NCBI RefSeq assembly: GCF_024502345.1
Contig: NZ_JALDNN010000001.1
From: Escherichia coli
GTDB lineage: Bacteria; Pseudomonadota; Gammaproteobacteria; Enterobacterales; Enterobacteriaceae
Direction: 5' to 3' (one strand)
Length of the DNA: 64,000 nucleotides
The notes below the pieces were generated by a model that saw only the letters and a list, made by a program, of their open reading frames with translations, searched no databases and had not been told where the DNA came from. Position 1 is the stretch's first letter. Each line of letters opens with the position of its first letter. The position numbers and the translations under genes are program-made. Shown in pieces: positions 35,005 to 53,433 of this stretch.

Positions 35005-35026
35005 TGGTATATCTCTGATGTAAAGT

Positions 35027-35223: not shown

Positions 35224-37758
35224 TTAATTACTACCAAACATATCCTTGATCCAACCGGCTACACCGTCTCTGTCTTTCTGCTCTTGCTGAGCAGGTTGCT
35301 GTTGCGGCTGTTGCTGCGGCTGAGAAGACTGATCAAACGGATTGCCTGACGGCTGCTGCTGCATCTCACTCTGCTGGCACAGCGATTGCGGATCGCTGGT
35401 CCAGACCGGCAAGACACGCATGCCACCGCTGCAAACAAAGTTGCCGTCGTAGTCCACGCCCATATCTGCAATATCTTCTGGCGGAACAAGATTCAGCGGC
35501 GTTGGCGTCTGGTTAGCCAGATAACGCTGATAAATCGACATTGCCCCGCTGGCTCCATACAGTTTGGTCGGCTGGTTGTTATCACGGCCTACCCAGGTGA
35601 TGGTCACCGTGCTGCCGTCAATGCCTGCAAACCAGGTATCTACGTTATTGTTGGTAGTCCCTGTTTTCCCTGCCAGATGCAGGTTCGGGTATTTCGCCCC
35701 AAGCTGACGACCCGTACCACGTTGTACCACCTGCTGCATGGTCCATAGTGTCAGATACGCCGCCTGCGCCGGAACAGCGCGTTCTGCCTGCGGGAAGCTC
35801 TGATACAGCACCTTGCCATCTTCCGCGATTACCGAACGCAGTGCAGAAAGCGGTGCACGGTTACCACCGCTGGCGATGGTCTGGAACGCCTGCGCCACTT
35901 CGATTGGCGTTAAGTTCAACGCCCCCAGCAGCATCGCCGGAACCGGATGCAGCTGATCTTTCGGTACGCCCAGTTTGATCCAGGTATCCGTAACTGCAGG
36001 CAGCCCCAGCGCCATCCCCAGATTTACCGTCGGCACGTTCATCGAACGGGTCAACGCATCCACCAGCATCACTCTGCCGCTTTCGCTATAACGACGGTCA
36101 TCGTTCTGCGGTGACCAGACCTGGCCATTCGGCTGACGCAGCGCGATTGGCGCATCGGCAATCCACGTGTTCAGGCGATAGATTTTCGGCTGGCTTAAAG
36201 CCGTCAGATAAGTCGCTGGTTTTGCAAGGGAACCAATCGAACGACGCGCCTGCATCGCACGGTTGTAGCCCGCAAACTGCGGCTCAGAACCTCCGACCAT
36301 CGCACGAACTTCACCACTAAAGCGGTCGACGACCACAATCGCAGTTTCAAGATCGCTCAACTTACGCTGTTTCTTCAGTGCCGGAATGCCTTCCACGGCG
36401 GCTTTTTCTGCCGCGTCCTGGGCCACCGAGTCAAAGGTAGTGAAGATCTTCACGCCGGAGAGATCTTTTACCTTATCGCCCAGTTTTGCCTGCAGCTCCT
36501 GACGCACCAGTTGCATAAAGGCTGGCTGAGGAGAGATCACCCCACCGCGCGGCTGAACCCCCAGCGGACGGGCACTCAACATGTCATAGAGTTCTTGATC
36601 AATAATCTGTTGCTGTTGCAGCAGACGCAGCACCAGATTACGTCGCTCCAGCGCCAGTTTTGGGTTACGCCACGGGTTGTAGATGGACGCCCCTTTCACC
36701 ATACCGACTAACAGCGCCTGCTGGTCGAGGCTTAGCTCTTCTACCGGGCGACCAAAGTAATACAAGCTTGCCAGCGGGAAGCCGCGGATTTCGTTGTCGC
36801 CGCTCTGACCGAGATACACCTCGTTCATATACAGCTCAAGAATACGGTCTTTGCTGTAACGCGCGTCCATGATCAGCGCCATGTAAGCTTCGTTCGCTTT
36901 ACGCCAGTAAGAACGCTCGCTGGAGAGGAACAGGTTTTTCACCAGCTGTTGCGTCAGCGTACTCGCACCCTGTACCGTGCGACCTGCGGTCAGGTTTGCC
37001 AGCACCGCACGTCCGATGGAGTAGAGGCTGATGCCGTCATGCTCGTAAAAATGACGGTCTTCTGTCGCCAGCAAAGTATCCACCAGCAAATCCGGGAAAC
37101 CACTGCGCGGCACAAACAGACGCTGCTCACCGTTTGGCGAAGAGATCATGGTGATCAGACGCGGATCAAGACGGAAAAAGCCGAACTGACGGTTGTTCTC
37201 CATATTGACGATCGTCGCCAGATGATCACCATCAAAGGTCAGACGCGCACGCACCTGCCCTTCTTTACTGTCCGGGAAATCAAACGGACGGCGGATCATC
37301 TCAATGCTGTTGGCCTGCACGGTAAATTCGCCAGGACGGGTCATTTTCGACACCTGGCGATACTGGGTCGCCTCCAGCAGCTTCACCATCTCGTTCTTGC
37401 TGATGGTCATGTCTGGCTCAAGGTTGACCATTCGGCCATAAACTGCCGCAGGCAGTTGCCAGACCTTGCCATCAATACGGCTACGAATTTTTTGATCGAG
37501 ATAAACGCCGTAAATGGCGATCAGCACGGCAAAAACGATAGCCAGTTTTAACAGCAGCCATAGCCAGCCGCGTTTGCCACGAGGCTTACGCCCTTTGCCT
37601 TTGCCCTTACCTTTGCGCGGCATCGGTTCTTCATCCTCATAGTCATCATAATCGTCGTAATCATCGTCATCTTCGTAACGACGACGGCTTACCTTTTGTT
37701 TGACCGGACGCGTCGGTTTCCCTTTGCGTCCAATTGGCTCGCGGTCATTCCCGGCCAT
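35224..37758 (-). CDS. mrcB: penicillin-binding protein 1B (bifunctional glycosyltransferase/transpeptidase)
   Basis: 844-aa product from the ATG at 37758..37756 ([15 protein letters not shown]…); acidic and lysine-rich cytoplasmic tail, transglycosylase then transpeptidase regions. Confidence 0.95.
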
Positions 37759-37855
37759 GCTTTTTCTCCGCAATATTCAGGCGCAAAAGCCCGATTTTCT
37801 GTTCTTCTGTTGCAAGACAGAAGAAGATATCTCTCAAAATTTGTGCTCGATCGGT

Positions 37856-37941
37856 CCCCTCTCCCTTGAGGGAGAGGGTTAGGGTGAGGGTGAACGTGCG
37901 CGCTGATGCCCTCACCCCGGCCCTCTCCCACAGGGAGAGGG
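37856..37941. repeat. GC-rich nested palindromic element in the hrpB-mrcB intergenic region
   Basis: Three consecutive GC hairpins: CCCTCTCCC-ttga-GGGAGAGGG (37857..37878), GGGTGAGGG…CCCTCACCC (37882..37917), CCCTCTCCC-aca-GGGAGAGGG (37921..37941); the outer arms can also pair with each other. Confidence 0.5.
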
Positions 37942-37953
37942 AGAAAACCAACC

Positions 37954-40383
37954 TTACGAATACTTTTTCGTCCGTCGCGTCGGTGCCGTGTTTGCCGGGT
38001 CGTCCGGCCAGACGTGTTTGGGATAACGCCCTTTCATCTCCTTTTGCACCTCACGATACGCCCCTTTCCAGAAGGCCCCCAAATCACGCGTGATTTGCAG
38101 CGGCCTTTGGGCAGGGGAAAGCAACTCCAGCACCAGCGGCACGCGCCCCTGGGCGATCGTCGGATTGGTGGCCTCACCAAACATCTCCTGCATTCTCACC
38201 GCCAGCGCGGGCGGGTTATCTTCATGATAACGAATGGCGATCCGGCTTCCCGTCGGCACAGTGTAATGCGCAGGCAATTCACTATCCAGACGTTGCTGCA
38301 TTCCCCAATCAAGTAATCCGCGTAGTGCCTGATAAATGTCGAGTGATTTCAGGCCGCGTAGTGAATGCACGCCGGTCATATGTGGCAGCAGCCACGTTTC
38401 CAGCGTCGCCAACAAACTTTCATTATCAACCGCAGGCCAGTCATATTCCGGCAACCACTTTGCGGCGCATAACAAACGCAAGCGTAGCTGTTCCGCTTCC
38501 GCCGTCCAGTTGAGCATGCTTAAACCTTTATCACGAATGCCATTAAGCATCGCCTGATGCAACTCGTCTTCCGAGGGTTTCGCCAGCGGCTGCACTTTCA
38601 CCGTCAGCAGACCGATTTGCAGCCGACGCCAGGCTTTCAGCGTACCTTGCGCGTCATCCCACTCCACAGTGTCAGACTGCTGTACCAGCTGCGGGCAGCG
38701 TTGTACTAACTCATCAATATCGACCGGCAGCGCCAGTAAAATCCGCGCATCCGGCGAGGCGCTGCCCTGCAATAATAACGGTGCGATCAACCATTCGTGG
38801 CGGCTTAGCGCGTCGTCGGCATCGAGCATCGCTCCCATGCCGTTTGCCAGTTGATAGCGTCCATTTTGCCCACGGCGATGAGCAATGCGATCGGCAAACG
38901 CCCCGGCAAGTAGCGGCGCGATAAGCGAACTGTCTGCCTCACCGCCGCGTACGTTTAAGCGTTTTAACAGTTGCTGACTACGTTGCTGCCAGGCTGGTTG
39001 ATTGCGCGAAAACGCCACGCCCAGGTCACTATTGCCCATCCGTGGCGGCTCTTCGAGAATGGCGGCAATTTTTGCCGCGGTAGCAGCTTCGTCGTCGTTC
39101 TTCGCGCTAACCAGCATTGCCGCTAAACGCGGATCGTTACCCAGCGCTGCCATTTTTTGCCCTTGCGCACTAAGCCGTTCACCCTCCAGTGCCCCCAGCA
39201 TTTGTAACAGACGTTTCGCGGCCAGTAGATTCACTACTGGCGGTTGATCCAGCCAGCTCATCTGCGCCGGATCGCTGCATCCCCATTGCAGTAATTCCAT
39301 CAGCAAACCGGAAAGATCGCTTTGTAAGATCTCCGGTTCACTTTGCGCCGCGGCGCGTTCTGCTTGTTCTTTGGCGATTAAATGCAGGCTGATACCCGGC
39401 TCCAGACGCCCGGCGCGCCCGGCACGCTGCGTCATGGATGCCTGGCTAACGCGTTGAGTAATCAGTCGCGTAAGCCCCGTGCGCGGATCAAAACGCGCCA
39501 CACGCTCCTGGGCACAATCCACCACCAGACGAATACCTTCAATGGTTAAACTGGTTTCAGCAATATTGGTCGCCAGCACCACTTTGCGCATCCCTTGCGG
39601 TGCCGGGAGGATCGCTTTTCGCTGATCGTTCAGCGACAACGCGCCATACAGCGGGCAGAGCAACACATCACTGCCGATGCGCGAAGCCAGTTGTTCCTGC
39701 ACACGCTGAATTTCTCCGACGCCAGGTAAAAATAACAGTAATGATCCGCTTTCCTGACGCAGCATTTCGGCGGTGGCTACCGCAACGGCTTCGTCAAAAC
39801 GCTGATGCGCGGGCAGCGGTAAATAATGGCGTTCAACCGGAAACGAGCGCCCTTCTGAGATGACGACGGGCGCTTCTGGCAGCATTTGCTGCAAGCGGTC
39901 GTTATCCAGCGTAGCCGACATAATCAGCAGTTTAAGGTCATCACGCAGACCTTGTTGCACATCGAGTAACAGCGCCAACGCCAAATCCGCCTGCAAGCTG
40001 CGCTCATGAAATTCATCGAGGATCACCAATCCAACACCGCTCAGTTCCGGGTCACGCTGGATCATGCGCGTCAGCACGCCTTCGGTAACCACTTCCAGGC
40101 GGGTATTCGGCCCGACGCAGTTTTGCGCACGCATCCGGTAGCCAACGGTATCGCCTGGCTTTTCGTTAAGCAGCTCCGCCAGTCGTTGCGCGACGTTACG
40201 CGCCGCCAGACGACGCGGCTCCAGCAGGATAATTTTCCCGTTAATGCCGGGATGCGCCAGCAGTTGCAGCGGCAGCCAGGTTGATTTCCCGGCCCCGGTC
40301 GGCGCACTTAATAATACCTGCGGCGCACAATCGAGAGCGGTAAGTAATTCAGGTAAGACGGCAGCAACGGGCAACGACGACAC
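37954..40383 (-). CDS. hrpB: ATP-dependent RNA helicase HrpB (DEAH-box), GTG start
   Basis: 809-aa product from a GTG (plus-strand cac at 40381..40383) giving MSSLPVAAVLPELL…; Walker A GAGKST and DEFH motif. Confidence 0.9.
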   Translation of the reverse strand: MSSLPVAAVLPELLTALDCAPQVLLSAPTGAGKSTWLPLQLLAHPGINGKIILLEPRRLAARNVAQRLAELLNEKPGDTVGYRMRAQNCVGPNTRLEVVTEGVLTRMIQRDPELSGVGLVILDEFHERSLQADLALALLLDVQQGLRDDLKLLIMSATLDNDRLQQMLPEAPVVISEGRSFPVERHYLPLPAHQRFDEAVAVATAEMLRQESGSLLLFLPGVGEIQRVQEQLASRIGSDVLLCPLYGALSLNDQRKAILPAPQGMRKVVLATNIAETSLTIEGIRLVVDCAQERVARFDPRTGLTRLITQRVSQASMTQRAGRAGRLEPGISLHLIAKEQAERAAAQSEPEILQSDLSGLLMELLQWGCSDPAQMSWLDQPPVVNLLAAKRLLQMLGALEGERLSAQGQKMAALGNDPRLAAMLVSAKNDDEAATAAKIAAILEEPPRMGNSDLGVAFSRNQPAWQQRSQQLLKRLNVRGGEADSSLIAPLLAGAFADRIAHRRGQNGRYQLANGMGAMLDADDALSRHEWLIAPLLLQGSASPDARILLALPVDIDELVQRCPQLVQQSDTVEWDDAQGTLKAWRRLQIGLLTVKVQPLAKPSEDELHQAMLNGIRDKGLSMLNWTAEAEQLRLRLLCAAKWLPEYDWPAVDNESLLATLETWLLPHMTGVHSLRGLKSLDIYQALRGLLDWGMQQRLDSELPAHYTVPTGSRIAIRYHEDNPPALAVRMQEMFGEATNPTIAQGRVPLVLELLSPAQRPLQITRDLGAFWKGAYREVQKEMKGRYPKHVWPDDPANTAPTRRTKKYS

Positions 40384-40456
40384 AAAACGCTCCAGAGGGT
40401 TAACATTCTTCGCGCCACATTGTAGCATCGCGGTAATTCATAACCGAGTGCCTCAC

Positions 40457-41706
<1,250 letters not shown>

Positions 41707-41883
41707 TAAAGTAAGTAACTGGTTAATTTACATTCTGGTCGCGTGCGCAAATACGCTTTTCCTCACACAGTTGTCAAGTGTTACGTTTAGATAATTGCTA
41801 TCCGGAAAAGCATCTGCTATTTATAGCGGCCTCATTTTTCCCCCGAACATGGGGATCGATAGTGCGTGTTAAGGAGAAGCAAC

Positions 41884-42339
41884 ATGCAAGAAGGGCAAAA
41901 CCGTAAAACATCGTCCCTGAGTATTCTCGCCATCGCTGGGGTGGAACCATATCAGGAGAAGCCGGGCGAAGAGTATATGAATGAAGCCCAGCTGGCGCAC
42001 TTCCGTCGTATTCTGGAAGCATGGCGTAATCAACTCAGGGATGAAGTCGATCGCACCGTTACACATATGCAGGATGAAGCAGCCAACTTCCCGGACCCGG
42101 TAGACCGTGCAGCCCAGGAAGAAGAGTTCAGCCTCGAACTGCGTAACCGCGATCGCGAGCGTAAGCTGATCAAAAAGATCGAGAAGACGCTGAAAAAAGT
42201 GGAAGACGAAGATTTCGGCTACTGCGAATCCTGCGGTGTTGAAATTGGTATTCGCCGTCTGGAAGCGCGCCCGACAGCCGATCTGTGCATCGACTGCAAA
42301 ACGCTGGCTGAAATTCGCGAAAAACAGATGGCTGGCTAA
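41884..42339 (+). CDS. dksA: RNA polymerase-binding transcription factor DksA
   Basis: 151-aa product from the ATG at 41884 ([15 protein letters not shown]…); C4 zinc finger [25 protein letters not shown]. Confidence 0.97.
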
Positions 42340-43361: not shown

Positions 43362-44759
43362 ATTTTTACCCGAGTCGCTAATTTTTGCCGCAAGGTGCTA
43401 AGCCGCGAGGAAAGCGAGGCTGAACAGGCAGTCGCCCGTCCACAGGTGACGGTGATCCCGCGTGAGCAGCATGCTATTTCCCGCAAAGATATCAGTGAAA
43501 ATGCCCTGAAGGTAATGTACAGGCTCAACAAAGCGGGATACGAAGCCTGGCTGGTTGGCGGCGGCGTGCGCGACCTGTTACTTGGCAAAAAGCCGAAAGA
43601 TTTTGACGTAACCACTAACGCCACGCCTGAGCAGGTGCGCAAACTGTTCCGTAACTGCCGCCTGGTGGGTCGCCGTTTCCGTCTGGCTCATGTAATGTTT
43701 GGCCCGGAGATTATCGAAGTTGCGACCTTCCGTGGACACCACGAAGGTAACGTCAGCGACCGCACGACCTCCCAACGCGGGCAAAACGGCATGTTGCTGC
43801 GCGACAACATTTTCGGCTCCATCGAAGAAGACGCCCAGCGCCGCGATTTCACTATCAACAGCCTCTATTACAGCGTAGCGGATTTTACCGTCCGTGATTA
43901 CGTTGGCGGTATGAAGGATCTGAAGGACGGCGTTATCCGTCTGATTGGTAACCCGGAAACGCGCTACCGTGAAGATCCGGTACGTATGCTGCGCGCGGTA
44001 CGTTTTGCCGCCAAATTGGGTATGCGCATCAGCCCGGAAACCGCAGAACCGATCCCTCGCCTCGCTACCCTGTTGAACGATATCCCACCGGCACGCCTGT
44101 TTGAAGAATCGCTTAAACTGCTACAAGCGGGCTACGGTTACGATACCTATAAGCTGTTGTGTGAATATCATCTGTTCCAGCCGCTGTTCCCGACCATTAC
44201 CCGCTACTTCACGGAAAATGGCGACAGCCCGATGGAGCGGATCATTGAACAGGTGCTGAAGAATACCGATACGCGTATCCATAACGATATGCGCGTGAAC
44301 CCGGCGTTCCTGTTTGCCGCCATGTTCTGGTACCCACTGCTGGAGACGGCACAGAAGATTGCCCAGGAAAGCGGCCTGACCTATCACGACGCTTTCGCGC
44401 TGGCGATGAACGACGTGCTGGACGAAGCCTGCCGTTCACTGGCAATCCCGAAACGTCTGACGACGTTAACCCGCGATATCTGGCAGTTGCAGTTGCGTAT
44501 GTCCCGTCGTCAGGGTAAACGCGCATGGAAACTGCTGGAGCATCCTAAGTTCCGTGCGGCTTATGACCTGTTGGCCTTGCGAGCTGAAGTTGAACGTAAC
44601 GCTGAACTGCAGCGTCTGGTGAAATGGTGGGGTGAGTTCCAGGTTTCCGCGCCACCAGATCAAAAAGGGATGCTTAACGAGTTGGATGAAGAGCCGTCAC
44701 CGCGTCGCCGTACTCGTCGTCCACGCAAACGCGCACCGCGTCGTGAGGGTACCGCATGA
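43362..44759 (+). CDS. pcnB: poly(A) polymerase I, AUU (ATT) initiation codon
   Basis: 465-aa product if initiation is at ATT 43362..43364 ([11 protein letters not shown]…), the start reported for K-12 pcnB; the ORF track begins at an upstream TTG (43341); stop overlaps the folK start by 4 nt. Confidence 0.88.
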
Positions 44760-45238
44760 CAGTTGCGTATATTGCCATAGGCAGCAATCTGGCCTCTCCG
44801 CTGGAGCAGGTCAATGCTGCCCTGAAAGCATTAGGCGATATCCCTGAAAGCCACATTCTTACCGTTTCTTCGTTTTACCGCACCCCACCGCTGGGGCCGC
44901 AAGATCAACCCGATTACTTAAACGCAGCCGTGGCGCTGGAAACAACACTTGCGCCTGAAGAATTACTTAATCACACACAGCAAATAGAGTTGCAGCAAGG
45001 TCGCGTTCGTAAAGCAGAACGCTGGGGACCGCGCATACTCGATCTTGATATCATGTTGTTTGGTAATGAAACCATTAATACCGAACGACTCACCGTCCCG
45101 CATTACGATATGAAGAATCGCGGCTTTATGCTGTGGCCGCTGTTTGAGATTGCCCCGGAACTCGTGTTTCCTGATGGGGAGACATTACGTGAAATACTCA
45201 CTTCGCTAGCAGTACTACAACCTGCCATCTGGTATTAG
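44756..45238 (+). CDS. folK: 6-hydroxymethyl-7,8-dihydropterin pyrophosphokinase FolK, variant C-terminus
   Basis: 160-aa ORF matching HPPK through about residue 140 (…[13 protein letters not shown]) and then diverging from the K-12 tail as recalled. Confidence 0.9.
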
Positions 45239-45519
45239 CTGTATTATTTTATTTTCTTATCTTACTCCTCACTTCCCCTCTTACAGATTAAATATACTTA
45301 ATTTACATTTTAGTTTTTTTTAATTAATTCATGAAATAGCACTTCATGCAAATAGATTAGGCATTTTTTGTTTAAAAAACCTAGAATAACAACAATTCAA
45401 TACACCACGTAAATATATTCACACAAGTGATACCTCTCCCCCTATTACATCCTTCCCCGACTTTAAGTAATATCCGCTCGCAATATTAATTTCGTATAAT
45501 TTTTGTAAGGATGCATGTA

Positions 45520-46116
45520 ATGAAAAAAGCACTTCTCGCAGCCGCTTTAGTAATGGCTTCTGGTTCCGCCTTGGCTGTAGATGGTGGTCATATCGACTTT
45601 AACGGTATGGTACAGTCCGGTACCTGTAAAGTGGGTGTGGTAGATACCGGTATGCACAGCGTTACCACTGATGGCGTGGTTACCCTGGATACTGCGAATG
45701 TTACTGATACTTTTACTGAAGTAAGTGCAACTGCTGTTGGTTTACTGCCGAAAGAGTTCATGATTTCTGTTGAGTGTGATCCAGGTGCTCCGAAGAATGC
45801 TGAGTTGACTATGGGTTCTGCAAGCTACGCGAACACCAGCGGTACCCTGAATAACAATATGAACATCACTGTTAACGGTATTGCACCGGCTCAGAACGTG
45901 AACATTGCAGTTCATAACATGAAAAACAAAGCTGGCGCTGCTGAAATTAAGCAGGTCCATATGAACAACTCTTCTGAAGTTCAGGAACTGACATTAGACG
46001 CAGAAGGTAAAGGTCAGTACGTGTTTAACGCATCTTACGTTAAAGCACCGAACAGCCCGGCTGTTACTGCTGGTCATGTAACCACTAACGCACTGTACAC
46101 CATTGCTTATAAATAA
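45520..46116 (+). CDS. yadN: fimbrial major subunit (YadN-like, chaperone-usher pilin)
   Basis: 199-aa product from the ATG at 45520 (signal peptide MKKALLAAALVMASGSALA; an SD-like TAAGG lies 9 nt upstream); C-terminal pilin strand …YTIAYK; first gene of the operon. Confidence 0.8.
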   Translation: MKKALLAAALVMASGSALAVDGGHIDFNGMVQSGTCKVGVVDTGMHSVTTDGVVTLDTANVTDTFTEVSATAVGLLPKEFMISVECDPGAPKNAELTMGSASYANTSGTLNNNMNITVNGIAPAQNVNIAVHNMKNKAGAAEIKQVHMNNSSEVQELTLDAEGKGQYVFNASYVKAPNSPAVTAGHVTTNALYTIAYK

Positions 46117-46202
46117 TTAATGGTGTGTTGAGCATAAGGTTTGCCGCCAGGCAGACCTTATTTTCGCTAATTTAATCTTTCTACAGACAGCAAGGAGTGC
46201 TT

Positions 46203-46928
46203 ATGTTTCCCTTGGTTAAAAAAACGGTTAGTGCATTATTTGTAAGTACTCTGTTAGCCAGTGCGCCTGCATTCGCTGACATTATTATTTCCGGAACTCG
46301 TATCATTTATAACGCTGATAAAAAAGATGTTAACGTTCGTCTGGAAAATAAAGGGAATCGCCCCTTACTGATTCAGAACTGGTTGGATACTGGCGACGAC
46401 AATGCCGATCCCAGCCAGATCAAAGTGCCATTTACCTCTACGCCGCCTGTTTCACGCGTTGAGCCAAAACGCGGTCAAACCGTAAAAGTGATGTACACCG
46501 GTGCAACAGCCCTGCCTAAAGACCGGGAAAGTGTCTACTGGTTTAACGTGCTGGAAGTGCCGCCTAAGCCGAAAGATGCTGAGTCTGACAAAAACTTATT
46601 ACAATTGGCTTTCCGCACACGCATCAAACTCTTTTATCGCCCGAGCGGTTTACAGGGAGAACCGGCTGAAGCACCGGCGAAAATCACCTGGAAATTAAAC
46701 AACGCTCAGTTACAGGCAAATAACCCAACGCCATATTACGTGTCCTTTAATGAGGTCAAGCTGGAAAGTGGCGGCAAAACCTACAACGTCAATTCCAGCA
46801 TGGTCGCGCCGTTCAGCCAGGCAAGCTTTCGCGTAACCGGTCTACCAGGAAGCGTTTCATCCGGGAAAGTGATCTTTAAAGCGATCAACGACTTTGGCGG
46901 CAACATCGATGGTTCCGCAACATTGTAA
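46203..46928 (+). CDS. yadV: fimbrial periplasmic chaperone (PapD-like; EcpD/YadV-like)
   Basis: ATG at 46203 preceded by AAGGAG at 5-nt spacing; PapD-like chaperone sequence with the conserved block WFNVLEVPPKP…LLQLAFRTRIKLFYRP. Confidence 0.85.
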   Translation: MFPLVKKTVSALFVSTLLASAPAFADIIISGTRIIYNADKKDVNVRLENKGNRPLLIQNWLDTGDDNADPSQIKVPFTSTPPVSRVEPKRGQTVKVMYTGATALPKDRESVYWFNVLEVPPKPKDAESDKNLLQLAFRTRIKLFYRPSGLQGEPAEAPAKITWKLNNAQLQANNPTPYYVSFNEVKLESGGKTYNVNSSMVAPFSQASFRVTGLPGSVSSGKVIFKAINDFGGNIDGSATL

Positions 46929-46969
46929 AAAATAAACGGATTCTTTTTAACATCGCCAGGAATGCAACC

Positions 46970-49570
46970 TTGTACCAGTTTACTCATCAAATAAGCCGTA
47001 TCCCGAAAAAAACGCTACTTGCGGCCTGTTGTGCCCTGTTTTATAGCAGCAACGGTGCTGCGGCAGACACGGTGGAATATGACAGTTCCTTCTTAATGGG
47101 AACTGGCGCATCAACGATTGATGTTAAACGTTATGCTCAAGGCAACCCGACACCCCCGGGCCTCTATAATGTCCGCGTGTTTGTAAACGGTCAGGCGACG
47201 TCCAGCTTAGAAATTCCGTTTGTGGATATTGGCGAAGCCAGCGCAGCGGCCTGTATTACCCACAAAAACCTGGCGCAACTCCACATAAAGCAACCTGAAC
47301 AGCCTGTCACTTTACTCGCCAGAGAAGGTGAAGAAGAGGATTGTCTGGATTTGGCAAAGTCATACGAAAAGGCGGATGTGCGCTTTGACGGCAGTGACCA
47401 GTTTCTCGATCTGACTATTCCTCAGGCCTATGTTCTGAAAAACTACGGTGGTTATGTCGACCCCTCACTGTGGGAGTCAGGGATTAACGCTGCCACACTG
47501 GCATATACCCTGAACGCCTATCATACAAGTTCAAATAACGACAATAGTGACAGCGCCTATGGCGCATTTAACTCAGGTATCAATTTAGGAGCCTGGCACT
47601 TCCGTGCGCGCGGTAACTATAACTGGACAACAGATAACGGCAGCGATTTCGATTTCCAGGATCGTTACTTACAGCGTGACATTCCGGCAATCCGTTCACA
47701 GATAATTATGGGTGATGCCTATACCACCGGTGAAACATTTGACTCTGTCAACGTCCGCGGCGTTCGCCTGTACAGCGATAGCCGTATGCTGCCTTCGGCG
47801 CTGGCCAGTTACGCTCCGACCATCCGCGGTGTAGCAAACTCCAACGCCAAAGTCACCGTGACGCAAAGCGGTTATAAAATCTATGAAACCACCGTACCAC
47901 CCGGTGAATTTGTTATAGACGACATTAGCCCCTCCGGCTTTGGTAGCGAACTGGTCGTGACCATTGAAGAAGCGGATGGTTCCAAACGCACCTTTACGCA
48001 ACCCTTCTCGTCGGTTGTACAAATGCAACGTCCTGGTGTGGGCCGTTGGGATTTCAGCGCGGGTAAAGTCATTGATGACAGTCTGCGATCCGAACCCAAT
48101 ATGGGACAAGCCTCTTATTACTATGGTCTGAATAACCTCTTCACGGGTTATACCGGTATTCAGTTCACCGATAATAACTATCTTGCCGGGCTGTTAGGTG
48201 TGGGTATCAACACCAGCATCGGTGCCTTTGCGGTAGACGTTACCCATTCCCGTGCTGAAATTCCGGATGATAAAACCTACCAGGGGCAAAGTTATCGCGT
48301 GACCTGGAACAAATTATTCCAGGATACCGGGACATCATTTAACCTCGCGGCGTACCGCTATTCCACCCAAGATTACCTGGGCCTGCATGATGCGTTAGTC
48401 CTCATTGACGACGCCAAACATTTGTCTGCCGATGAAGACAAAAACACCATGCAGACGTACTCACGTATGAAAAACCAGTTTACCGTCAGCATCAACCAGC
48501 CGCTGAAAACGACTTACGAAGATTACGGTTCACTGTTTATTTCTGGTAGCTGGACGGATTACTGGGCGGCGAACAATAGCCGCACTGAATATAATGTTGG
48601 TTACAGTAAAAGCGTTTCGTGGGGCAGTTTCAGCGTCAACCTGCAACGTAGCTGGAATGAAGACGGCGAGAAAGATGACGCGATGTACGTCAGCGTTAGC
48701 GTACCTATTGAGAATATTTTAGGTGGCAAACGTAAGTCTTCTGGTTTCCGCAATTTAAATACTCAGCTCAATACCGATTTCGATGGTTCACATCAGTTGA
48801 ATGTTAACAGTTCCGGTAACACTGAAAACAATCTGGTGAACTACAGTGTCAACGCAGGTTATAGCCTCGATAAAAACTCCGGCGATTTAGCCTCTGTTGG
48901 TGGTTATCTCAACTATGAATCAGGGTTAGGCGGTATTTCCGCTTCGGCCTCGGCCACTTCGGATAACAGCCAACAGTACTCCATCTCCACCGATGGAGGC
49001 TTTGTATTACACAGTGGTGGTTTAACGTTCACTAACAACAGTTTCAGCAGTAACGACACGCTGGTGTTAATCAACGCCCCAGGTGCTAAAGGCGCACGAA
49101 TCAATAACAGTAATAACGAAATCGATCGCTGGGGATATGCCGTGACGTCCTCTGTCAGCCCCTACCGTGAAAACCGGGTAGGTCTGAACATTGAAACACT
49201 GGAAAACGATGTTGAACTGAAAAGTACCAGCGCCACCACCGTACCACGTAGCGGCTCCGTTGTTTTGACCCGGTTCGAAACTGACGAGGGGCGTTCTGTC
49301 GTGCTGAATATTACTGCCGCCAATGGCAAATCTATTCCGTTTGCTGCGGAGGTTTACCAGGATGACGTGATGATCGGCAGCATGGGCCAGGGTGGTCAGG
49401 CATTTGTGCGCGGTATTAACGACAGCGGGGAATTAATCGTGCGTTGGTATGAAAACAACCAAACCATTGACTGTAAGTTGCACTACCAGTTCCCGGCCCA
49501 GCCACAAACGCTGGGAAGTACCAACACCTTATTACTTAATAATCTTACCTGTCAGGTAGCAAATCACTAA
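46970..49570 (+). CDS. htrE: fimbrial outer membrane usher (HtrE-like)
   Basis: 866-aa ORF, TTG start, usher-family length and sequence blocks (…RMLPSALASYAPTIRGVANSNAKVTVTQSGYKIYETTVPPG…). Confidence 0.88.
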   Translation: MYQFTHQISRIPKKTLLAACCALFYSSNGAAADTVEYDSSFLMGTGASTIDVKRYAQGNPTPPGLYNVRVFVNGQATSSLEIPFVDIGEASAAACITHKNLAQLHIKQPEQPVTLLAREGEEEDCLDLAKSYEKADVRFDGSDQFLDLTIPQAYVLKNYGGYVDPSLWESGINAATLAYTLNAYHTSSNNDNSDSAYGAFNSGINLGAWHFRARGNYNWTTDNGSDFDFQDRYLQRDIPAIRSQIIMGDAYTTGETFDSVNVRGVRLYSDSRMLPSALASYAPTIRGVANSNAKVTVTQSGYKIYETTVPPGEFVIDDISPSGFGSELVVTIEEADGSKRTFTQPFSSVVQMQRPGVGRWDFSAGKVIDDSLRSEPNMGQASYYYGLNNLFTGYTGIQFTDNNYLAGLLGVGINTSIGAFAVDVTHSRAEIPDDKTYQGQSYRVTWNKLFQDTGTSFNLAAYRYSTQDYLGLHDALVLIDDAKHLSADEDKNTMQTYSRMKNQFTVSINQPLKTTYEDYGSLFISGSWTDYWAANNSRTEYNVGYSKSVSWGSFSVNLQRSWNEDGEKDDAMYVSVSVPIENILGGKRKSSGFRNLNTQLNTDFDGSHQLNVNSSGNTENNLVNYSVNAGYSLDKNSGDLASVGGYLNYESGLGGISASASATSDNSQQYSISTDGGFVLHSGGLTFTNNSFSSNDTLVLINAPGAKGARINNSNNEIDRWGYAVTSSVSPYRENRVGLNIETLENDVELKSTSATTVPRSGSVVLTRFETDEGRSVVLNITAANGKSIPFAAEVYQDDVMIGSMGQGGQAFVRGINDSGELIVRWYENNQTIDCKLHYQFPAQPQTLGSTNTLLLNNLTCQVANH

Positions 49571-49571
49571 T

Positions 49572-50132
49572 ATGGAAAATTCTATGAAAAGGATACTACT
49601 AACATCCGCGTTAATAGGCCTGGGTTTACCGGCGGTTGGCTCTGCAACAGATCTTAATGTCGATTTTACGGCCACCGTATTAGCCACCACCTGCACGATA
49701 ACTATCGTACAAGATGGTGGCCCAGTAGTGACGGGTAGTAACGGTGAATATAGCCTGACAATTCCCGATGTTGGCCTGGATAAAGTTATAACTGGAGATG
49801 TTGCAGCTCAAGCCAACTTTAAATTACTGGCTTCCGATTGCAGCAATGGTTACTCAAAGATTTTTACCACACTTACAGGTGCATCTGTTTCAGGTAAGTT
49901 GATTGTCAATGAAGCAAGCTCTGGCGCTACTGGTGTGGGTATGGGGATTAAGCGTAGAGATACCGCAGACTCAACTTTCTTTACACCCAATAATACTGAC
50001 AAATTTGAATGGACCACCGATGAGAAAGCTAACGGTGTGCCTCTAACCGTAGCACTGCGCGAAACAACGGCGGGAGCAGGACGCACCGGTGCGTTTCAGG
50101 CAAAAGCCACCTTTAACTTCACCTACGAATAA
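49572..50132 (+). CDS. yadM: fimbrial minor subunit (YadM-like)
   Basis: 186-aa ORF with signal peptide, a Cys pair and C-terminal …ATFNFTYE pilin donor-strand motif; second ATG at 49584 possible. Confidence 0.78.
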   Translation: MENSMKRILLTSALIGLGLPAVGSATDLNVDFTATVLATTCTITIVQDGGPVVTGSNGEYSLTIPDVGLDKVITGDVAAQANFKLLASDCSNGYSKIFTTLTGASVSGKLIVNEASSGATGVGMGIKRRDTADSTFFTPNNTDKFEWTTDEKANGVPLTVALRETTAGAGRTGAFQAKATFNFTYE

Positions 50133-50146
50133 CAGGGACAGCCACC

Positions 50147-50758
50147 ATGAAATTAAAAGTCATCGCTACACTGATTGCCACTGTTGCCGTGGGTGCCAGC
50201 GTTAGCAACAATCTCGCTTATGCGGGTACGACATCCGCCTCTTTAACCGTAAACAGTAACCTGACTATGGGTACCTGTAGTGCGAAGATACTGGATACCA
50301 GTGATACCGTGACCGATACCGTTGCCTTTAACAATGTTTATATTTCTGAACTGGCAGCCAAAAGCAAGGTACAACCATTTAAAATCCGTTTCAGCGATTG
50401 CGCCGGTCTTCCAGGAAAAAGTGCTCAACTCGTATTGGCACCCAAAGGTATCGGTTGCGCTGGCGGCATGTCTAACACTGCCGGCTTTGCAAATAAACTT
50501 AACTCCACCACCGAAGGTGGTTCAAGCGGAGCAGCTGTCGAAGTATGGACGACTACGACCCCCGGGGGAAGTGGCAGTAAGCAATTCAGTTGCATTCAGC
50601 GAAACGTCGTCAATGTCGATCTTTCTAATGCCAGCACAACACAGCCTTATGATTTCGATTTAAGCGCGCGGATGATTCTCGCTGAAGGGAGAACGGTTAA
50701 TGATGCATTACCGGGTAGTTTCCTCTCTCCTACGACTTTCACAATCACTTATCAGTAA
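50147..50758 (+). CDS. yadL: fimbrial minor subunit (YadL-like)
   Basis: 203-aa ORF with signal peptide and C-terminal …TTFTITYQ. Confidence 0.78.
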   Translation: MKLKVIATLIATVAVGASVSNNLAYAGTTSASLTVNSNLTMGTCSAKILDTSDTVTDTVAFNNVYISELAAKSKVQPFKIRFSDCAGLPGKSAQLVLAPKGIGCAGGMSNTAGFANKLNSTTEGGSSGAAVEVWTTTTPGGSGSKQFSCIQRNVVNVDLSNASTTQPYDFDLSARMILAEGRTVNDALPGSFLSPTTFTITYQ

Positions 50759-50778
50759 TAGCGGATAAGGATATTAGA

Positions 50779-51369
50779 ATGCTATGCAGGCATCATAAAT
50801 TTGTACGCTTTTTGGGGCTGGTAACAGCCCTCGTTACGCCTTTTGCCTATGCTGGCCAGGATGTGAATCTCACCGCGCAGATTGTGGCCAGTACCTGTCA
50901 GGTTGAAGTCAGTAATAATGGCGTTGTCGATCTCGGCACAGTGACGCTGGACTATTTTGCTGACAATGTGACCCCGACAACGGATTATGCGGGTGGCAAA
51001 ACGTTTAATGTTAATGTGGTCTCTTGCGATAACATTCAAACGACACAGTCGCAAATGAAATTAGATTTTCAGCCGCAGGCGGGATCGCTTGCGCAGGTGA
51101 ATAATCAAATTTTTAGTAATGAATATGAACAGCAGGCTACCGGGGCGAAAAACGTCGGCATTGTGATATTTTCGGCCCAGCCGAATCAGCAGACATTTAA
51201 CGTGCGAGGAACGGATGGTTCCTCAACAGCAATTTATTCGGTCGCGCCTGGCAACGCTGCTCCCTCAACCTGGACCTTTTATTCCCGTATGCAACGGGTG
51301 AATAATGCCCTTCCTCCTGAATCGGGAATGGTGAGAAGCCAGGTTATTGTTAATGTATCTTATGAATAA
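50779..51369 (+). CDS. yadK: fimbrial minor subunit (YadK-like)
   Basis: 196-aa ORF; SD-like TAAGGA 7 nt upstream; C-terminal …VIVNVSYE. Confidence 0.78.
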   Translation: MLCRHHKFVRFLGLVTALVTPFAYAGQDVNLTAQIVASTCQVEVSNNGVVDLGTVTLDYFADNVTPTTDYAGGKTFNVNVVSCDNIQTTQSQMKLDFQPQAGSLAQVNNQIFSNEYEQQATGAKNVGIVIFSAQPNQQTFNVRGTDGSSTAIYSVAPGNAAPSTWTFYSRMQRVNNALPPESGMVRSQVIVNVSYE

Positions 51370-51380
51370 TAAGGATAATT

Positions 51381-52493
51381 ATGCAAAGGAAAGGCAATAA
51401 ACTGTTAATTCAGTTATGCAGTGCGATACTGCTATTTTTTACCACATCCTGGTATGCATTGGCGACTGAATGTTATATAGAGAGCAATGCTGCAGGGGCT
51501 TATGATATTGTTATAAACCCAACTCCCTTCAGTATACAGTCAGCGATGGTCACAGTCCCGGAGGAAATATCTTTCGCGGCCTCGGATGTTCATATTGACC
51601 TTCGAGGGGATAAGATTGGCTGTAAATCCTTAGGTAGTAACACAAGCGCGGTACATTTTCTTAATACTGCTGATGCCAGTAACATATCTACCTACACTGA
51701 CAGTCACGGTAATGGTTTATTGAAAACAACCGTTACGGGTATTGTTTATTCAGTAGAATTACAATGTAGAAATTGTGGAGCCGCGGAGGATCTTAGTTTG
51801 ATGCTTCCAGCACAAAGCGGTGGAGATAATCATACAAGCAACTCTGATACAAAGTGGGCCTATGAGTATAGTGACGATAGCTGGTATTTACGATTTCGTT
51901 TTTTCTGGACCCCGGAATATAAACCCCAAAATGGGGTTTCAGAAGGATTTGCGATACCAGGTAAAATAGCCTCCTGGTATATAGGCAATGAGAATCAACC
52001 ATGGATAAATTTTTTCGTTGATACAAGCTCCCTGCATTTTTACGTGGAGGAACCCACCTGTCAAACAGTTGCCCTGGCACAAGATCAGGGTAATGTCAGC
52101 GGCAACCAGGTAACGCTTGGGAACAACTATGTTTCGGAAGTGAAAAATGGGCTTACGCGGGAAATTCCTTTTGCCATCCGCGCTGAATACTGTTATGCCA
52201 GTAAGATTACGGTTAAGTTGAAAGCGGCAAATAAGCCCAGCGACGCCACTCTGGTAGGTAAAACAACGGGCTCTGCTTCAGGCGTGGCTGTAAAAGTGCA
52301 TTCAACTTACGAAGACAGCAAAGTATTGTTAAAAGCAGATGGTAGCAACACGGTTGACTACAACTTCGCAATCTGGTCAAACAACCTGCTGAATTTGCCC
52401 TTTACGGCACAGTTGGTACCGGATGGCAGTGGTAATGCAGTCGGTGTTGGAACATTTTCAGGAAACGCGACCTTCTCCTTTACCTACGAATAA
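51381..52493 (+). CDS. yadC: fimbrial tip adhesin (YadC-like, two-domain)
   Basis: 370-aa ORF: N-terminal Cys-containing putative receptor-binding domain plus C-terminal pilin domain ending …ATFSFTYE; last gene of the operon. Confidence 0.75.
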   Translation: MQRKGNKLLIQLCSAILLFFTTSWYALATECYIESNAAGAYDIVINPTPFSIQSAMVTVPEEISFAASDVHIDLRGDKIGCKSLGSNTSAVHFLNTADASNISTYTDSHGNGLLKTTVTGIVYSVELQCRNCGAAEDLSLMLPAQSGGDNHTSNSDTKWAYEYSDDSWYLRFRFFWTPEYKPQNGVSEGFAIPGKIASWYIGNENQPWINFFVDTSSLHFYVEEPTCQTVALAQDQGNVSGNQVTLGNNYVSEVKNGLTREIPFAIRAEYCYASKITVKLKAANKPSDATLVGKTTGSASGVAVKVHSTYEDSKVLLKADGSNTVDYNFAIWSNNLLNLPFTAQLVPDGSGNAVGVGTFSGNATFSFTYE

Positions 52494-52516
52494 GTAAAAC
52501 GTCATTCCCTCCTCAT

Positions 52517-52550
52517 CGCACCAGAGTTCTGCTCTGGTGCGAACGTTTTC
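52517..52550 (+). terminator. putative terminator after the fimbrial operon
   Basis: Hairpin CGCACCAGAG-ttct-GCTCTGGTGCG followed by AACGTTTTC. Confidence 0.45.
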
Positions 52551-52627
52551 CCCCACGAAAAGCCATTGCCCCCTTGTTTTCGGCTGTTAGAATGCGATCA
52601 ATCTGACTTTAGCCATCAGGATACGTT

Positions 52628-53422
52628 ATGAAACCGACCACTATTGCTTCACTACAGAAATATAAGCAGGAAAAAAAACGCTTCGCCACCATCACCGCCT
52701 ATGACTACAGCTTCGCCAAACTGTTTGCTGATGAAGGGCTGAATGTGATGCTGGTGGGCGACTCGCTGGGCATGACGGTTCAGGGGCACGACTCCACCCT
52801 GCCAGTTACCGTTGCTGATATCGCCTACCACACTGCCGCCGTACGTCGCGGCGCACCAAACTGCCTGTTGTTGGCTGACCTGCCGTTTATGGCGTATGCC
52901 ACGCCGGAACAAGCCTTTGAAAACGCCGCAACGGTTATGCGTGCCGGTGCTAACATGGTCAAAATTGAAGGCGGTGAGTGGCTGGTCGAAACCGTAAAAA
53001 TGTTGACCGAACGTGCCGTTCCTGTATGTGGTCACTTAGGTTTAACCCCACAGTCAGTGAATATTTTCGGTGGCTACAAAGTTCAGGGGCGCGGCGATGA
53101 AGCGAGCGATCGACTGCTTAGCGATGCATTAGCCTTAGAAGCCGCTGGTGCACAGTTGCTGGTGCTGGAGTGCGTGCCGGTTGAACTGGCAAAACGTATT
53201 ACCGAAGCACTGGCGATCCCGGTGATTGGCATTGGCGCAGGTAACGTCACCGACGGACAAATTCTTGTGATGCATGACGCCTTTGGTATTACAGGCGGTC
53301 ACATCCCTAAATTTGCCAAAAATTTCCTCGCAGAAACGGGCGACATCCGCGCGGCGGTGCGGCAGTATATGGCTGAAGTGGAGTCCGGCGTTTACCCGGG
53401 CGAAGAACACAGTTTCCATTAA
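52628..53422 (+). CDS. panB: 3-methyl-2-oxobutanoate hydroxymethyltransferase PanB
   Basis: 264-aa ORF starting [33 protein letters not shown]. Confidence 0.97.
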
Positions 53423-53433
53423 GGAGTAACGTT

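What the first reader, a model, noticed from the sequence alone, without database searches (positions are those of the whole stretch)
51381..52493. Tip adhesin gene of the fimbrial operon looks like a compositional outlier
Seen in sequence: the last fimbrial gene is noticeably AT-rich over its N-terminal domain (for example 51400..51900), and its product has a Cys-containing N-terminal domain unlike the pilin-like C-terminal domain. Inference: the receptor-binding domain may have been exchanged by recombination independently of the rest of the operon, as happens with hypervariable fimbrial adhesins.
Basis: inference. Interest (0 to 1): 0.45.

Follow-up and report, generated by a model that had tools for sequence, protein, structure and literature searches.

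The report
Swappable lectin domain in YadC adhesin
The last gene of this E. coli fimbrial operon encodes a two-domain tip adhesin whose receptor-binding half has been exchanged between strains by recombination, a pattern typical of fimbrial adhesins; its AT-richness is real but is shared by every variant, so it does not mark a recent import.

Summary
The N-terminal 660 bp of the gene (51381-52040) have GC 0.41 and GC3 0.36. The C-terminal part has 0.48 and 0.50, the operon 0.47 and the window 0.51.

The gene sits in the yadC position of the E. coli yad chaperone-usher operon, between folK and panB. This is the "O157:H7 locus 2" type, not the K-12 type.

Structure prediction gives a two-domain tip adhesin:
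- an F17G/MrkD/Abp1D-like receptor-binding domain (residues 29 to about 220);
- a pilin domain (about 227-370).

The recombination reading is supported:
- Against O157:H7, DNA identity drops from 97% in yadK to about 60-69% across the lectin domain, then recovers to about 91% in the pilin domain.
- Synonymous divergence is saturated in the lectin domain (dS about 2.4, against 0.16 in yadK).
- The two domains give incompatible trees, each with 95-100% bootstrap.
- The topology switch lies at 52025-52062, the interdomain linker.

The composition argument does not hold. Every allele examined, including ones only 67% identical, has the same low GC, so low GC is a standing property of the domain.

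Lectin-domain hypervariability and recombination were already published for K-12-type YadC. This is an ordinary, rare allele of a known kind (11 of 5426 genomes).

The parts
51381..52493 (+). yadC-position gene: 370-aa two-domain fimbrial tip adhesin (stop codon included)
   Evidence: ORF. It is syntenic with the gene annotated 'fimbrial tip-adhesin YadC' in K-12 and 'fimbrial protein' in 100%-identical RefSeq genomes. AlphaFold2 pLDDT is 90. The best full-length Foldseek hits are FimH, LpfD, CupB6, FocH, CfaE and PapG.
51371..51375 (+). Shine-Dalgarno-like AAGGA, 5 nt before the ATG
   Evidence: Read directly from the sequence.
51381..51464 (+). Signal peptide (codons 1-28, ...WYALA|TECY)
   Evidence: Read from the sequence. 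Predicted helix 7-24 with low pLDDT. This stretch is conserved between alleles whose mature lectin domains differ. The cleavage site is inferred.
51465..52040 (+). Receptor-binding (lectin) domain, residues 29 to about 220: AT-rich, hypervariable, four Cys (31, 81, 119, 122)
51480..52066 (+). Hyperdivergent exchange block (outer limits of the two maximum-likelihood estimates)
   Evidence: Two-breakpoint likelihood scan. Window vs O157:H7: 51504-52066, 34% divergence inside and 6% outside. Window vs O78 strain 3: 51480-52057, 23% against 6.4%.
52025..52062 (+). Interval holding the recombination breakpoint between the domains (codons 215-228, linker ...HFYVEEPTC)
   Evidence: Last site supporting the lectin-domain topology is 52025. 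The run of sites supporting the pilin-domain topology starts at 52062. The GC3 change point is at 52026.
52059..52490 (+). Pilin domain, residues 227-370, with invariant C227 and C271 and the C-terminal ...TFSFTYE
   Evidence: Family alignment. Foldseek matches to FimG, FimA, FimF and PapA over about 155 columns. BLASTP to K-12 YadC aligns only residues 201-369. 91-100% aa identity across E. coli alleles of this type.
52516..52542 (+). Stable hairpin after the stop codon, followed by GAACGTTTT: likely operon terminator
   Evidence: RNA fold: -24.4 kcal/mol for 52494-52570, z = -5.7. The simple terminator scan did not call it because the T run is weak. Function is inferred.
50779..51369 (+). 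yadK-position minor subunit: conserved upstream flank that can anchor crossovers
   Evidence: 93-96% DNA identity to other alleles. dS 0.12-0.31. NCBIfam PRK15262 scores 273 bits, above its cut-off of 132.
50147..50758 (+). yadL-position minor subunit, with a second hypervariable block at about 50300-50650
   Evidence: 58-74% identity to O157:H7 in 150-bp windows. dS 0.91. Its tree differs from those of both yadC domains.
45511..50132 (+). Rest of the operon: major subunit (yadN position), chaperone, usher (htrE position) and yadM-position subunit
   Evidence: ORFs, RefSeq annotation, NCBIfam StaA/StaD-like hits. 92-97% DNA identity to other alleles of the same type.

Best explanation
The gene encodes the tip adhesin of a Yad-type (gamma4) chaperone-usher fimbria. 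A signal peptide is followed by an N-terminal receptor-binding beta-sandwich domain, which contacts the host or surface ligand. A C-terminal pilin domain plugs the adhesin into the fibre through the chaperone and usher encoded upstream.

In the E. coli population the lectin domain behaves as an exchangeable cassette. Homologous recombination crosses over in the conserved sequences on either side. These are yadK plus the signal peptide and first mature residues upstream, and the PTC motif plus the pilin domain downstream. Very divergent lectin domains are therefore placed on a nearly constant pilin scaffold.

The cassette lineages are older than the divergence of the surrounding operon. They evolve under purifying selection when distant classes are compared, and they show a raised amino-acid replacement rate between close relatives. 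This fits selection for different receptor specificities.

The low GC, especially at third codon positions, is a long-standing feature common to all cassettes and to the related low-GC operon types at this locus. It is not a trace of a recent foreign insertion in this strain.

Shown here: the architecture, the mosaic structure, the breakpoints and the shared composition. Inferred: the ligand-binding role, the selective agent, and the cause of the AT-richness.
For: Locus and architecture:
- The locus is syntenic with K-12 yadN-yadV-htrE-yadM-yadL-yadK-yadC.
- The two-domain model is confident, and its best structural matches are two-domain tip adhesins and lectin domains.

Mosaic structure:
- Per-segment DNA identity to O157:H7 is yadK 94.9%, lectin part 73.2%, pilin part 90.9%.
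- 150-bp windows fall to 59-69% only between about 51500 and 52000.
- Window vs O157:H7 dS is 2.4 in the lectin domain, 0.16 in yadK and 0.34 in the pilin domain, with dN/dS about 0.11.

Incongruent phylogenies:
- NJ bootstrap for the lectin domain gives {O78_3, DSM103246, O157H7} at 100%.
- For the pilin domain it gives {O78_3, DSM103246, window group} at 100% and {ES5, Res13, O157H16, O157H7} at 95%. These splits are incompatible with the lectin split.
- Quartet informative sites are 26/5/7 in the lectin domain and 2/18/2 in the pilin domain. Fisher p = 2e-7.
- The PHI-type test gives p<=0.001 for yadC, 0.13 within the lectin domain and 0.65 within the pilin domain.

Domain combinations at protein level:
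- Window vs P0054: pilin 97%, lectin 71%.
- O157H7 vs P0055: pilin 97%, lectin 64%.
- P0055 vs P0059: lectin 84%, pilin 76%.

Ongoing short patches: DSM103246 differs from O78 strain 3 almost only inside yadC, and at 52246-52280 it carries the O145 bases.

Composition: lectin-domain GC is 0.41-0.44 and GC3 0.31-0.39 in all 11 alleles examined.

Literature: the lectin domain is less conserved than the pilin domain, recombination occurs between phylogroups, and the AT-rich locus is repressed by H-NS in K-12-type Yad (PMC13245861). The O157:H7 operon of this type is expressed from native promoters and affects virulence gene expression (PMC11287998).
Against: - Only about 10 distinct DNA alleles and about 30 protein cluster representatives were analysed. 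No formal recombination package (GARD, 3SEQ, ClonalFrameML) was run.
- The dS of 2.4 is at saturation, so it sets only a lower bound on age.
- The PHI-type statistic is my own implementation.
- No donor was found for the window's own lectin domain. Its nearest relative is 82% identical in protein and 87-89% in DNA. The direction and date of the exchange that made this allele are therefore unknown.
- Between close alleles dN/dS reaches 0.4-0.58, so point substitution under relaxed or positive selection contributes part of the variability.
- No ligand is known for this adhesin type.
Confidence: 0.85

Rival explanations
1. There was no exchange. The lectin domain simply evolves faster in place, through diversifying or relaxed selection on receptor-binding residues, while the rest of the operon is constrained.
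For: dN in the lectin domain is about 10-fold higher than in flanking genes. dN/dS rises to 0.40-0.58 in the closer comparisons with O145, O157:H16 and ES5. In 89% of protein pairs the lectin domain is less identical than the pilin domain.
Against: Faster amino-acid change does not raise synonymous divergence 10-15-fold (dS 2.4 against 0.16). It does not produce incompatible splits with 95-100% bootstrap in adjacent domains. It does not produce pairs in which the lectin domain is more similar than the pilin domain, such as P0055 vs P0059 at 84% against 76%. The boundaries are abrupt and recur at the same codons.
Confidence: 0.08
2. The AT-rich N-terminal half is a recent horizontal import from a low-GC donor into this particular strain. 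Its composition has not yet drifted towards that of the host genome.
For: GC 0.41 and GC3 0.36, against 0.48 and 0.50 for the pilin part and 0.51 for the window. The compositional change point coincides with the recombination breakpoint. The allele is rare: 11 of 5426 genomes carry a near-identical gene, and only 5 have the lectin part at 99% or more.
Against: All 11 alleles tested have the same low GC and GC3 in this domain, including alleles 67% identical to each other and found in unrelated lineages. The second operon type (ATCC 8739) and K-12 yadC are at about 0.37-0.43 throughout. No closer relative outside E. coli was found among 5.8 billion clustered proteins or 1.84 billion representatives. 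E. albertii is 74% identical in this domain and Escherichia sp. E2661 is 77%. No mobility genes flank the block.
Confidence: 0.05
3. The gene is decaying. The low GC, rare codons and variability reflect loss of function in a cryptic, H-NS-silenced operon.
For: - The operon is broken in some relatives. ES5 has an internal stop in yadC, Res13 has an IS3 in the yadM-position gene, and H9Ecoli has an IS1-associated deletion that leaves only the 3' 381 bp of yadC.
- Rare codons reach 9% in the lectin part.
- K-12-type Yad is cryptic in the laboratory and repressed by H-NS (PMC13245861).
Against: The window's reading frame is intact, and gene length is conserved at 366-376 aa across the family. dN/dS is well below 1 (0.11-0.5). 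The cysteines and core motifs are conserved. The fold is predicted with pLDDT 90-94. The O157:H7 operon of this type is transcribed from its own promoters (PMC11287998).
Confidence: 0.02

Closest known systems
[not shown]
   Same: Same chromosomal site, same seven-gene order and same gene lengths. Usher 98%, chaperone 97% and major subunit 99% protein identity. Adhesin pilin domain 93% aa identical.
   Different: The lectin domain is only 66% aa and about 67-73% DNA identical, with saturated synonymous divergence. The yadL-position subunit is 67% identical. The window's allele is rare, found in 11 of 5426 complete genomes.
YadC tip adhesin of K-12/UPEC Yad fimbriae (reported ligands: D-xylose, annexin A2)
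   Same: - It occupies the same position as the last gene of the operon between folK and panB.
- It has the same two-domain lectin-plus-pilin organisation.
- Profile-profile homology covers the pilin domain and most of the lectin domain. hhalign gives probability 99.9% and E 2.6e-36, with C81 aligned to K-12 C88 and KTxVPGIVY aligned to NTSVPGLYY.
- The published pattern is the same: the lectin domain is less conserved than the pilin domain, with recombination between phylogroups (PMC13245861).
   Different: - Global protein identity is 23%, and pairwise BLASTP aligns only the pilin domain at 26%.
- The protein is 370 aa, against 412-421 aa.
- The usher is 60% identical, so the 80% HtrE criterion of PMC13245861 scores such strains as Yad-negative. 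That paper reports phylogroup E as 0% positive.
- NCBIfam PRK09723 scores 23.7 bits against a cut-off of 473.
- The ligands reported for K-12/UPEC YadC cannot be assumed here.
Receptor-binding domains of F17G/GafD, MrkD, Abp1D, AtfE, UclD and LpfD adhesins
   Different: Sequence identity is 8-12%, and no sequence-level match to any PDB chain was found. Binding-site residues cannot be transferred. The resemblance is of fold only.
FimH, the type 1 fimbrial adhesin, and its population genetics
   Same: It is a two-domain tip adhesin, and Foldseek's best full-length matches include FimH. Allelic variation is concentrated in, or functionally tied to, the lectin domain.
   Different: From general knowledge, FimH alleles differ by a few percent, mostly through point mutations. 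Here the lectin domains differ by 18-50% in protein and are swapped as blocks.
Salmonella Sta/Stk fimbrial operons (StaA-G, StkG)
   Same: These are the best NCBIfam matches for the operon's subunits: StaA, StaD and StaE for three of them and StkG for the adhesin (residues 67-370, E 7e-15). A Salmonella serovar Kotte protein is 48-54% identical.
   Different: All these scores lie far below the curated cut-offs (StkG 54.8 bits against 329). They are related families, not equivalents.

Membership tests
Two-domain tip adhesin of a classical chaperone-usher fimbria | Encoded in an operon with a periplasmic chaperone and an outer-membrane usher, usually as the last subunit gene | tested here: met
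   Chaperone 46197-46928, usher 46970-49570 and four other subunit genes lie upstream. RefSeq annotation of identical DNA agrees.
Two-domain tip adhesin of a classical chaperone-usher fimbria | N-terminal receptor-binding domain with a lectin-type beta-sandwich fold | tested here: met
   [not shown]
Two-domain tip adhesin of a classical chaperone-usher fimbria | C-terminal pilin domain (Ig-like, conserved disulfide, conserved C-terminal aromatic motif) | tested here: met
   C227, C271 and Y369 are invariant in the family alignment. Foldseek matches FimG, FimA, FimF and PapA over about 155 columns. BLASTP aligns residues 201-369 with the K-12 YadC pilin domain.
Two-domain tip adhesin of a classical chaperone-usher fimbria | Match to Pfam PF00419 (Fimbrial) | tested here: inconclusive
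   My hmmscan of the window protein gave no PF00419 hit at E<=10. Precomputed annotations list PF00419 for relatives that are 38-86% identical.
Two-domain tip adhesin of a classical chaperone-usher fimbria | Sits at the fibre tip and binds a receptor | not testable with these tools
   This needs immuno-EM and binding assays.
YadC of K-12/UPEC (orthologue in the strict sense) | Same chromosomal locus and gene order | tested here: met
   folK-[7 genes]-panB-panC-rpnC in the window and in K-12.
YadC of K-12/UPEC (orthologue in the strict sense) | Sequence similarity at the level of the curated family model or of the usher-based definition used in the literature | tested here: not met
   NCBIfam PRK09723 scores 23.7 bits against a cut-off of 473. 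YadC is 23% and HtrE 60% identical, below the 80% HtrE criterion of PMC13245861.
YadC of K-12/UPEC (orthologue in the strict sense) | Homology of both domains | tested here: met
   hhalign of two alignments with no shared sequences gives probability 99.9% and E 2.6e-36, aligned from window residue 77 to the end. Most of the score comes from the pilin domain. The lectin-domain part rests on a few shared motifs.
YadC of K-12/UPEC (orthologue in the strict sense) | Binds D-xylose or annexin A2 | not testable with these tools
   These ligands are reported for K-12/UPEC YadC (PMC13245861, PMC6921372). No inference is possible at 23% identity.
StkG (NCBIfam NF011833) | Score above the curated cut-off | tested here: not met
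   54.8 bits against a cut-off of 329.
Mosaic (recombinant) gene | Adjacent segments give incompatible, well-supported phylogenies | tested here: met
   Bootstrap 95-100% for conflicting splits. Quartet sites 26/5/7 against 2/18/2, with Fisher p = 2e-7.
Mosaic (recombinant) gene | Localised breakpoints and a jump in synonymous divergence | tested here: met
   Blocks 51504-52066 and 51480-52057. dS 2.4 inside, 0.16-0.34 outside.
Mosaic (recombinant) gene | Significant homoplasy-based recombination test | tested here: met
   PHI-type permutation test gives p<=0.001 for yadC, and is not significant within either domain. The implementation is my own and uses eight sequences.
Recently acquired compositional island | Composition deviates from its surroundings | tested here: met
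Recently acquired compositional island | The deviation is specific to the lineage that acquired it | tested here: not met
   The same GC and GC3 occur in all 11 alleles examined.

The most novel reading that the evidence does not exclude
The lectin-domain cassettes of this adhesin, and the hypervariable core of the yadL-position subunit, may be polymorphisms older than E. coli itself. Their synonymous divergence is saturated, and related types occur in E. albertii and a cryptic Escherichia clade. They would be kept by balancing selection for alternative receptor specificities and shuffled onto a constant pilin scaffold.

Their uniformly low GC3 would then be a consequence of this state. One possible cause is that very divergent cassettes cannot recombine internally and so escape GC-biased repair. 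Another is that AT-richness is selected to keep the operon under H-NS control.

A side consequence is that surveys using an 80% usher-identity threshold overlook a second, deeply divergent Yad family present in about 11% of complete E. coli genomes.
Probability: 0.3. Interest if true: 0.5.

Novelty: new member of a known kind. Interest (0 to 1): 0.25.

Why it matters
For annotation, this gene should be read as a Yad-type tip adhesin whose ligand cannot be copied from K-12 or UPEC YadC. The receptor-binding domains share only remote, profile-level similarity.

For population genomics, the folK-panB interval is a recombination hot spot. Identity thresholds on whole genes or on the usher hide a second operon family there. 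One published survey reports phylogroup E as Yad-negative although O157:H7 carries this syntenic operon.

For adhesin biology, the set of lectin-domain classes on one pilin scaffold is a natural panel for mapping receptor specificity.

None of this changes current understanding of how fimbrial adhesins evolve.

Tried and rejected
1. A megablast hit covering only the 3' third of the gene (H9Ecoli) looked like a natural chimera. The annotation shows an IS1-associated deletion of the operon, so it was rejected as evidence.

2. A protein-database search with the lectin domain alone returned only six fragmentary hits and was uninformative. The full-length search and the exhaustive representative search were used instead.

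3. Pfam gave no hit and PDB sequence search gave no hit. Fold comparison was needed.

4. The seven clustered differences between the window and strain F9792 (51533-51580) were checked for a donor among the sampled alleles. The F9792 bases are unique and the window carries the common state. They say nothing about the window's own history.

5. My first profile-profile comparison used two alignments that shared one sequence (P0034). I repeated it without overlap.

6. ES5 was dropped from the codon analyses of yadC because of its frameshift or stop.

7. The simple terminator scan did not call the hairpin after the stop codon. Folding supports a stable stem-loop, but its function remains inferred.

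8. Recent import from a low-GC donor was considered and rejected because all alleles share the composition.

Full report
**What is there**

The finding's coordinates match an intact ORF, 51381-52493 on the + strand, of 370 aa. An AAGGA lies 5 nt upstream of the ATG. It is the last of seven co-oriented fimbrial genes:
- major subunit, 45511-46116;
- chaperone, 46197-46928;
- usher, 46970-49570;
- three minor subunits, 49572-51369;
- this gene.

The operon lies between folK and panB. In K-12 the same interval holds yadN-yadV-htrE-yadM-yadL-yadK-yadC, and the last gene is annotated "fimbrial tip-adhesin YadC". Identical or near-identical DNA occurs in a few RefSeq E. coli genomes, where the gene is annotated only as "fimbrial protein". 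A stable hairpin follows the stop codon (52516-52542; -24.4 kcal/mol for the folded stretch, z -5.7). It probably ends the operon.

**Checking the observation**

| Segment | GC | GC3 |
|---|---|---|
| N-terminal 660 bp (51381-52040) | 0.412 | 0.359 |
| C-terminal 453 bp (52041-52493) | 0.477 | 0.497 |
| Other operon genes | 0.45-0.49 | 0.39-0.53 |
| Whole window | 0.513 | not computed |

The N part falls in the lowest 1% of 660-bp windows of the 64 kb and contains the operon's minimum. It differs from the rest of the operon at p=0.002 for GC and p=0.0005 for GC3; both tests are post hoc.

Inside the gene the best GC3 change point is codon 215 (position 52026). By permutation it is only borderline (p=0.059). 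Rare codons are commonest in the N part.

The whole operon is below the flanking housekeeping genes (0.53-0.57), and the major-subunit gene and its upstream spacer are also AT-rich.

On cysteines, the mature N domain has four (31, 81, 119, 122). The C domain also has an invariant pair (227, 271).

**What the protein is**

Pfam and PDB sequence searches found nothing. NCBIfam's best hit is Salmonella StkG, far below its cut-off.

An AlphaFold2 model built on a 28-sequence family alignment is confident (pLDDT 90). Its best full-length Foldseek matches are two-domain tip adhesins: FimH, LpfD, CupB6, FocH, CfaE and PapG.

The gene therefore encodes a signal peptide, a lectin-type domain (residues 29 to about 220), a short linker and a pilin domain (about 227-370).

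**Relation to K-12 YadC**

The window's operon is syntenic with K-12 Yad but deeply divergent from it:

| Protein | Identity to K-12 |
|---|---|
| Usher (HtrE) | 60% |
| Chaperone | 61% |
| Major subunit | 41% |
| Adhesin (YadC) | 23% |

Pairwise BLASTP aligns only the pilin domain. A profile-profile comparison of two alignments with no shared sequences gives probability 99.9%. It extends into the lectin domain, pairing C81 with K-12 C88 and KTxVPGIVY with NTSVPGLYY.

A second subtype of the same 370-aa family occurs in ATCC 8739 (usher 81% identical). About 620 of 5426 complete genomes carry a yadC of this family. Only 11 carry the window's allele.

**Testing the recombination idea**

*Identity by segment.* Against other operons of the same type:

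| Segment | DNA identity to the window |
|---|---|
| Major subunit, chaperone, usher, yadK-position gene | 93-97% |
| Pilin part of yadC | 90-92.5% |
| Lectin part of yadC | 73-89% |
| yadL-position gene | 73-91% |

*Sliding windows.* Against O157:H7, 150-bp windows run at 97-98% through yadK. They fall to 59-69% between about 51500 and 52000, then return to 89-94%.

*Synonymous divergence.* Window vs O157:H7, dS is 2.4 (saturated) in the lectin domain, 0.16 in yadK and 0.34 in the pilin domain, with dN/dS about 0.11. Faster protein evolution alone cannot produce that. Closer alleles show dN/dS of 0.4-0.5, so a raised replacement rate also contributes.

*Tree conflict.* Neighbour-joining bootstraps give {O78_3, DSM103246, O157H7} at 100% for the lectin domain. 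For the pilin domain they give {O78_3, DSM103246, window group} at 100% and {ES5, Res13, O157H16, O157H7} at 95%. These splits are incompatible.

*Quartet sites.* For the window, O157:H16, O78 strain 3 and O157:H7, informative sites supporting the three possible topologies are:
- 26/5/7 in the lectin domain;
- 2/18/2 in the pilin domain;
- mostly the third topology in yadL-yadK.

The switch lies between 52025 and 52062. Fisher p is 2e-7.

*Breakpoints.* Two-breakpoint likelihood scans place the divergent block at 51504-52066 (vs O157:H7) and 51480-52057 (vs O78 strain 3). That runs from just after the mature N-terminus to the PTC motif that opens the pilin domain.

*Homoplasy test.* A PHI-type permutation test is significant for the whole gene (p<=0.001) but not within either domain.

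*Protein cluster representatives.* Pilin domains of E. coli alleles are 91-100% identical, while lectin domains fall into distinct classes. Both kinds of discordance occur:

| Pair | Pilin domain identity | Lectin domain identity |
|---|---|---|
| Window vs P0054 | 97% | 71% |
| O157H7 vs P0055 | 97% | 64% |
| P0055 vs P0059 | 76% | 84% |

*Ongoing short patches.* Short-patch exchange still happens. DSM103246 and O78 strain 3 are nearly identical across the locus except for patches in yadC. One of these patches carries O145-type bases.

**What the composition means**

The low GC and GC3 of the lectin domain are present in all 11 alleles examined (GC 0.41-0.44, GC3 0.31-0.39). This includes alleles about 67% identical to one another, while their pilin domains sit at about 0.47-0.48. 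The ATCC 8739-type operon and K-12 yadC are at about 0.37-0.43 throughout.

The dip is therefore a long-standing property of this domain, not a mark of recent import into this strain. The compositional boundary and the recombination boundary coincide because both follow the domain boundary. I could not test why the cassette stays AT-rich.

**Known or new**

PMC13245861 (2026) already reports four things for K-12-type Yad:
- YadC has a lectin and a pilin domain.
- The lectin domain is consistently less conserved.
- The YadC phylogeny shows recombination between phylogroups.
- The AT-rich locus is repressed by H-NS.

That study defined Yad by 80% or more identity to the EC958 usher and reported no Yad in phylogroup E. 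The operon type in this window was therefore outside its scope.

The present case extends a known pattern to a sister family and to a rare allele. It is an ordinary example of lectin-domain cassette exchange in a fimbrial adhesin.

**Verdict**

- Novelty: new member of a known kind.
- Interest: low to moderate.

Noticed in passing
window 50300-50650 (middle of the yadL-position gene, 50147-50758): This is a second hypervariable block in the operon. Identity to O157:H7 is 58-74% in 150-bp windows and dS is 0.91, while both flanks are about 90-97% identical. Its tree differs from those of both yadC domains.
   Followed up: partly
window 44756-45238 (folK) and 52628-54285 (panB, panC): The housekeeping genes flanking the operon are unusually polymorphic. 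folK is 99.6% identical to O157:H7 but only 88-91% to K-12 and most others. panB is 88-97% identical, with local patches such as 53170-53300 at 87-89%, and 52900-53150 at 83-85% against O157:H16. pcnB is 94-99%, and 96% or more in 12 of the 14 genomes compared. The whole folK-panC interval looks like a recombination hot spot.
   Followed up: partly
window 45239-45510 (folK-yadN spacer): This spacer is very AT-rich (GC about 0.31 in 45250-45549) and lies upstream of the major-subunit gene. It is the likely promoter and H-NS target region of the operon. It is 100% conserved in the window's clone but only about 70% identical, or unalignable, in other operon types.
   Followed up: no
loci L004 (ES5), L007 (Res13), L013 (H9Ecoli): The operon is inactivated in several strains. 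ES5 has an internal stop in yadC. Res13 has an IS3-family insertion splitting the yadM-position gene. H9Ecoli has an IS1-associated deletion that removes everything except the last 381 bp of yadC.
   Followed up: partly
literature vs locus L002 (O157:H7): PMC13245861 reports that no phylogroup E strain carries Yad genes, using an 80% usher-identity threshold. O157:H7 nevertheless has a complete syntenic seven-gene operon at the yad locus, with an usher about 60% identical to the K-12-type HtrE. PMC11287998 calls this operon Yad.
   Followed up: yes
window 54659-55531 (- strand) and the short ORF remnant annotated next to it in related loci: The rpnC (yadD) gene for a recombination-promoting nuclease lies just downstream of panC. 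Several genomes carry an adjacent truncated Rpn/YadD-family fragment. Its closeness to a recombination-rich interval may be coincidence.
   Followed up: no
window 51533-51580: Strain F9792 differs from the window by seven substitutions within 48 bp of the lectin domain, in an operon that is otherwise 99.7-100% identical. The F9792 bases match no sampled allele. By identity band, six of the 11 genomes with the window's pilin domain have a lectin part only 95-99% identical; F9792 is the one that was aligned.
   Followed up: partly
window 30000-42000 (fhuA-fhuB-fhuD, hrpB, mrcB region): Only 3 genomes match this 12-kb stretch at 99% or more, and K-12 is at 94.8%. The best match here is a different strain (MFDS1016424) from the best matches at the yad locus (FDAARGOS_943 and FDAARGOS_944). 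This suggests further mosaicism around fhuA.
   Followed up: no
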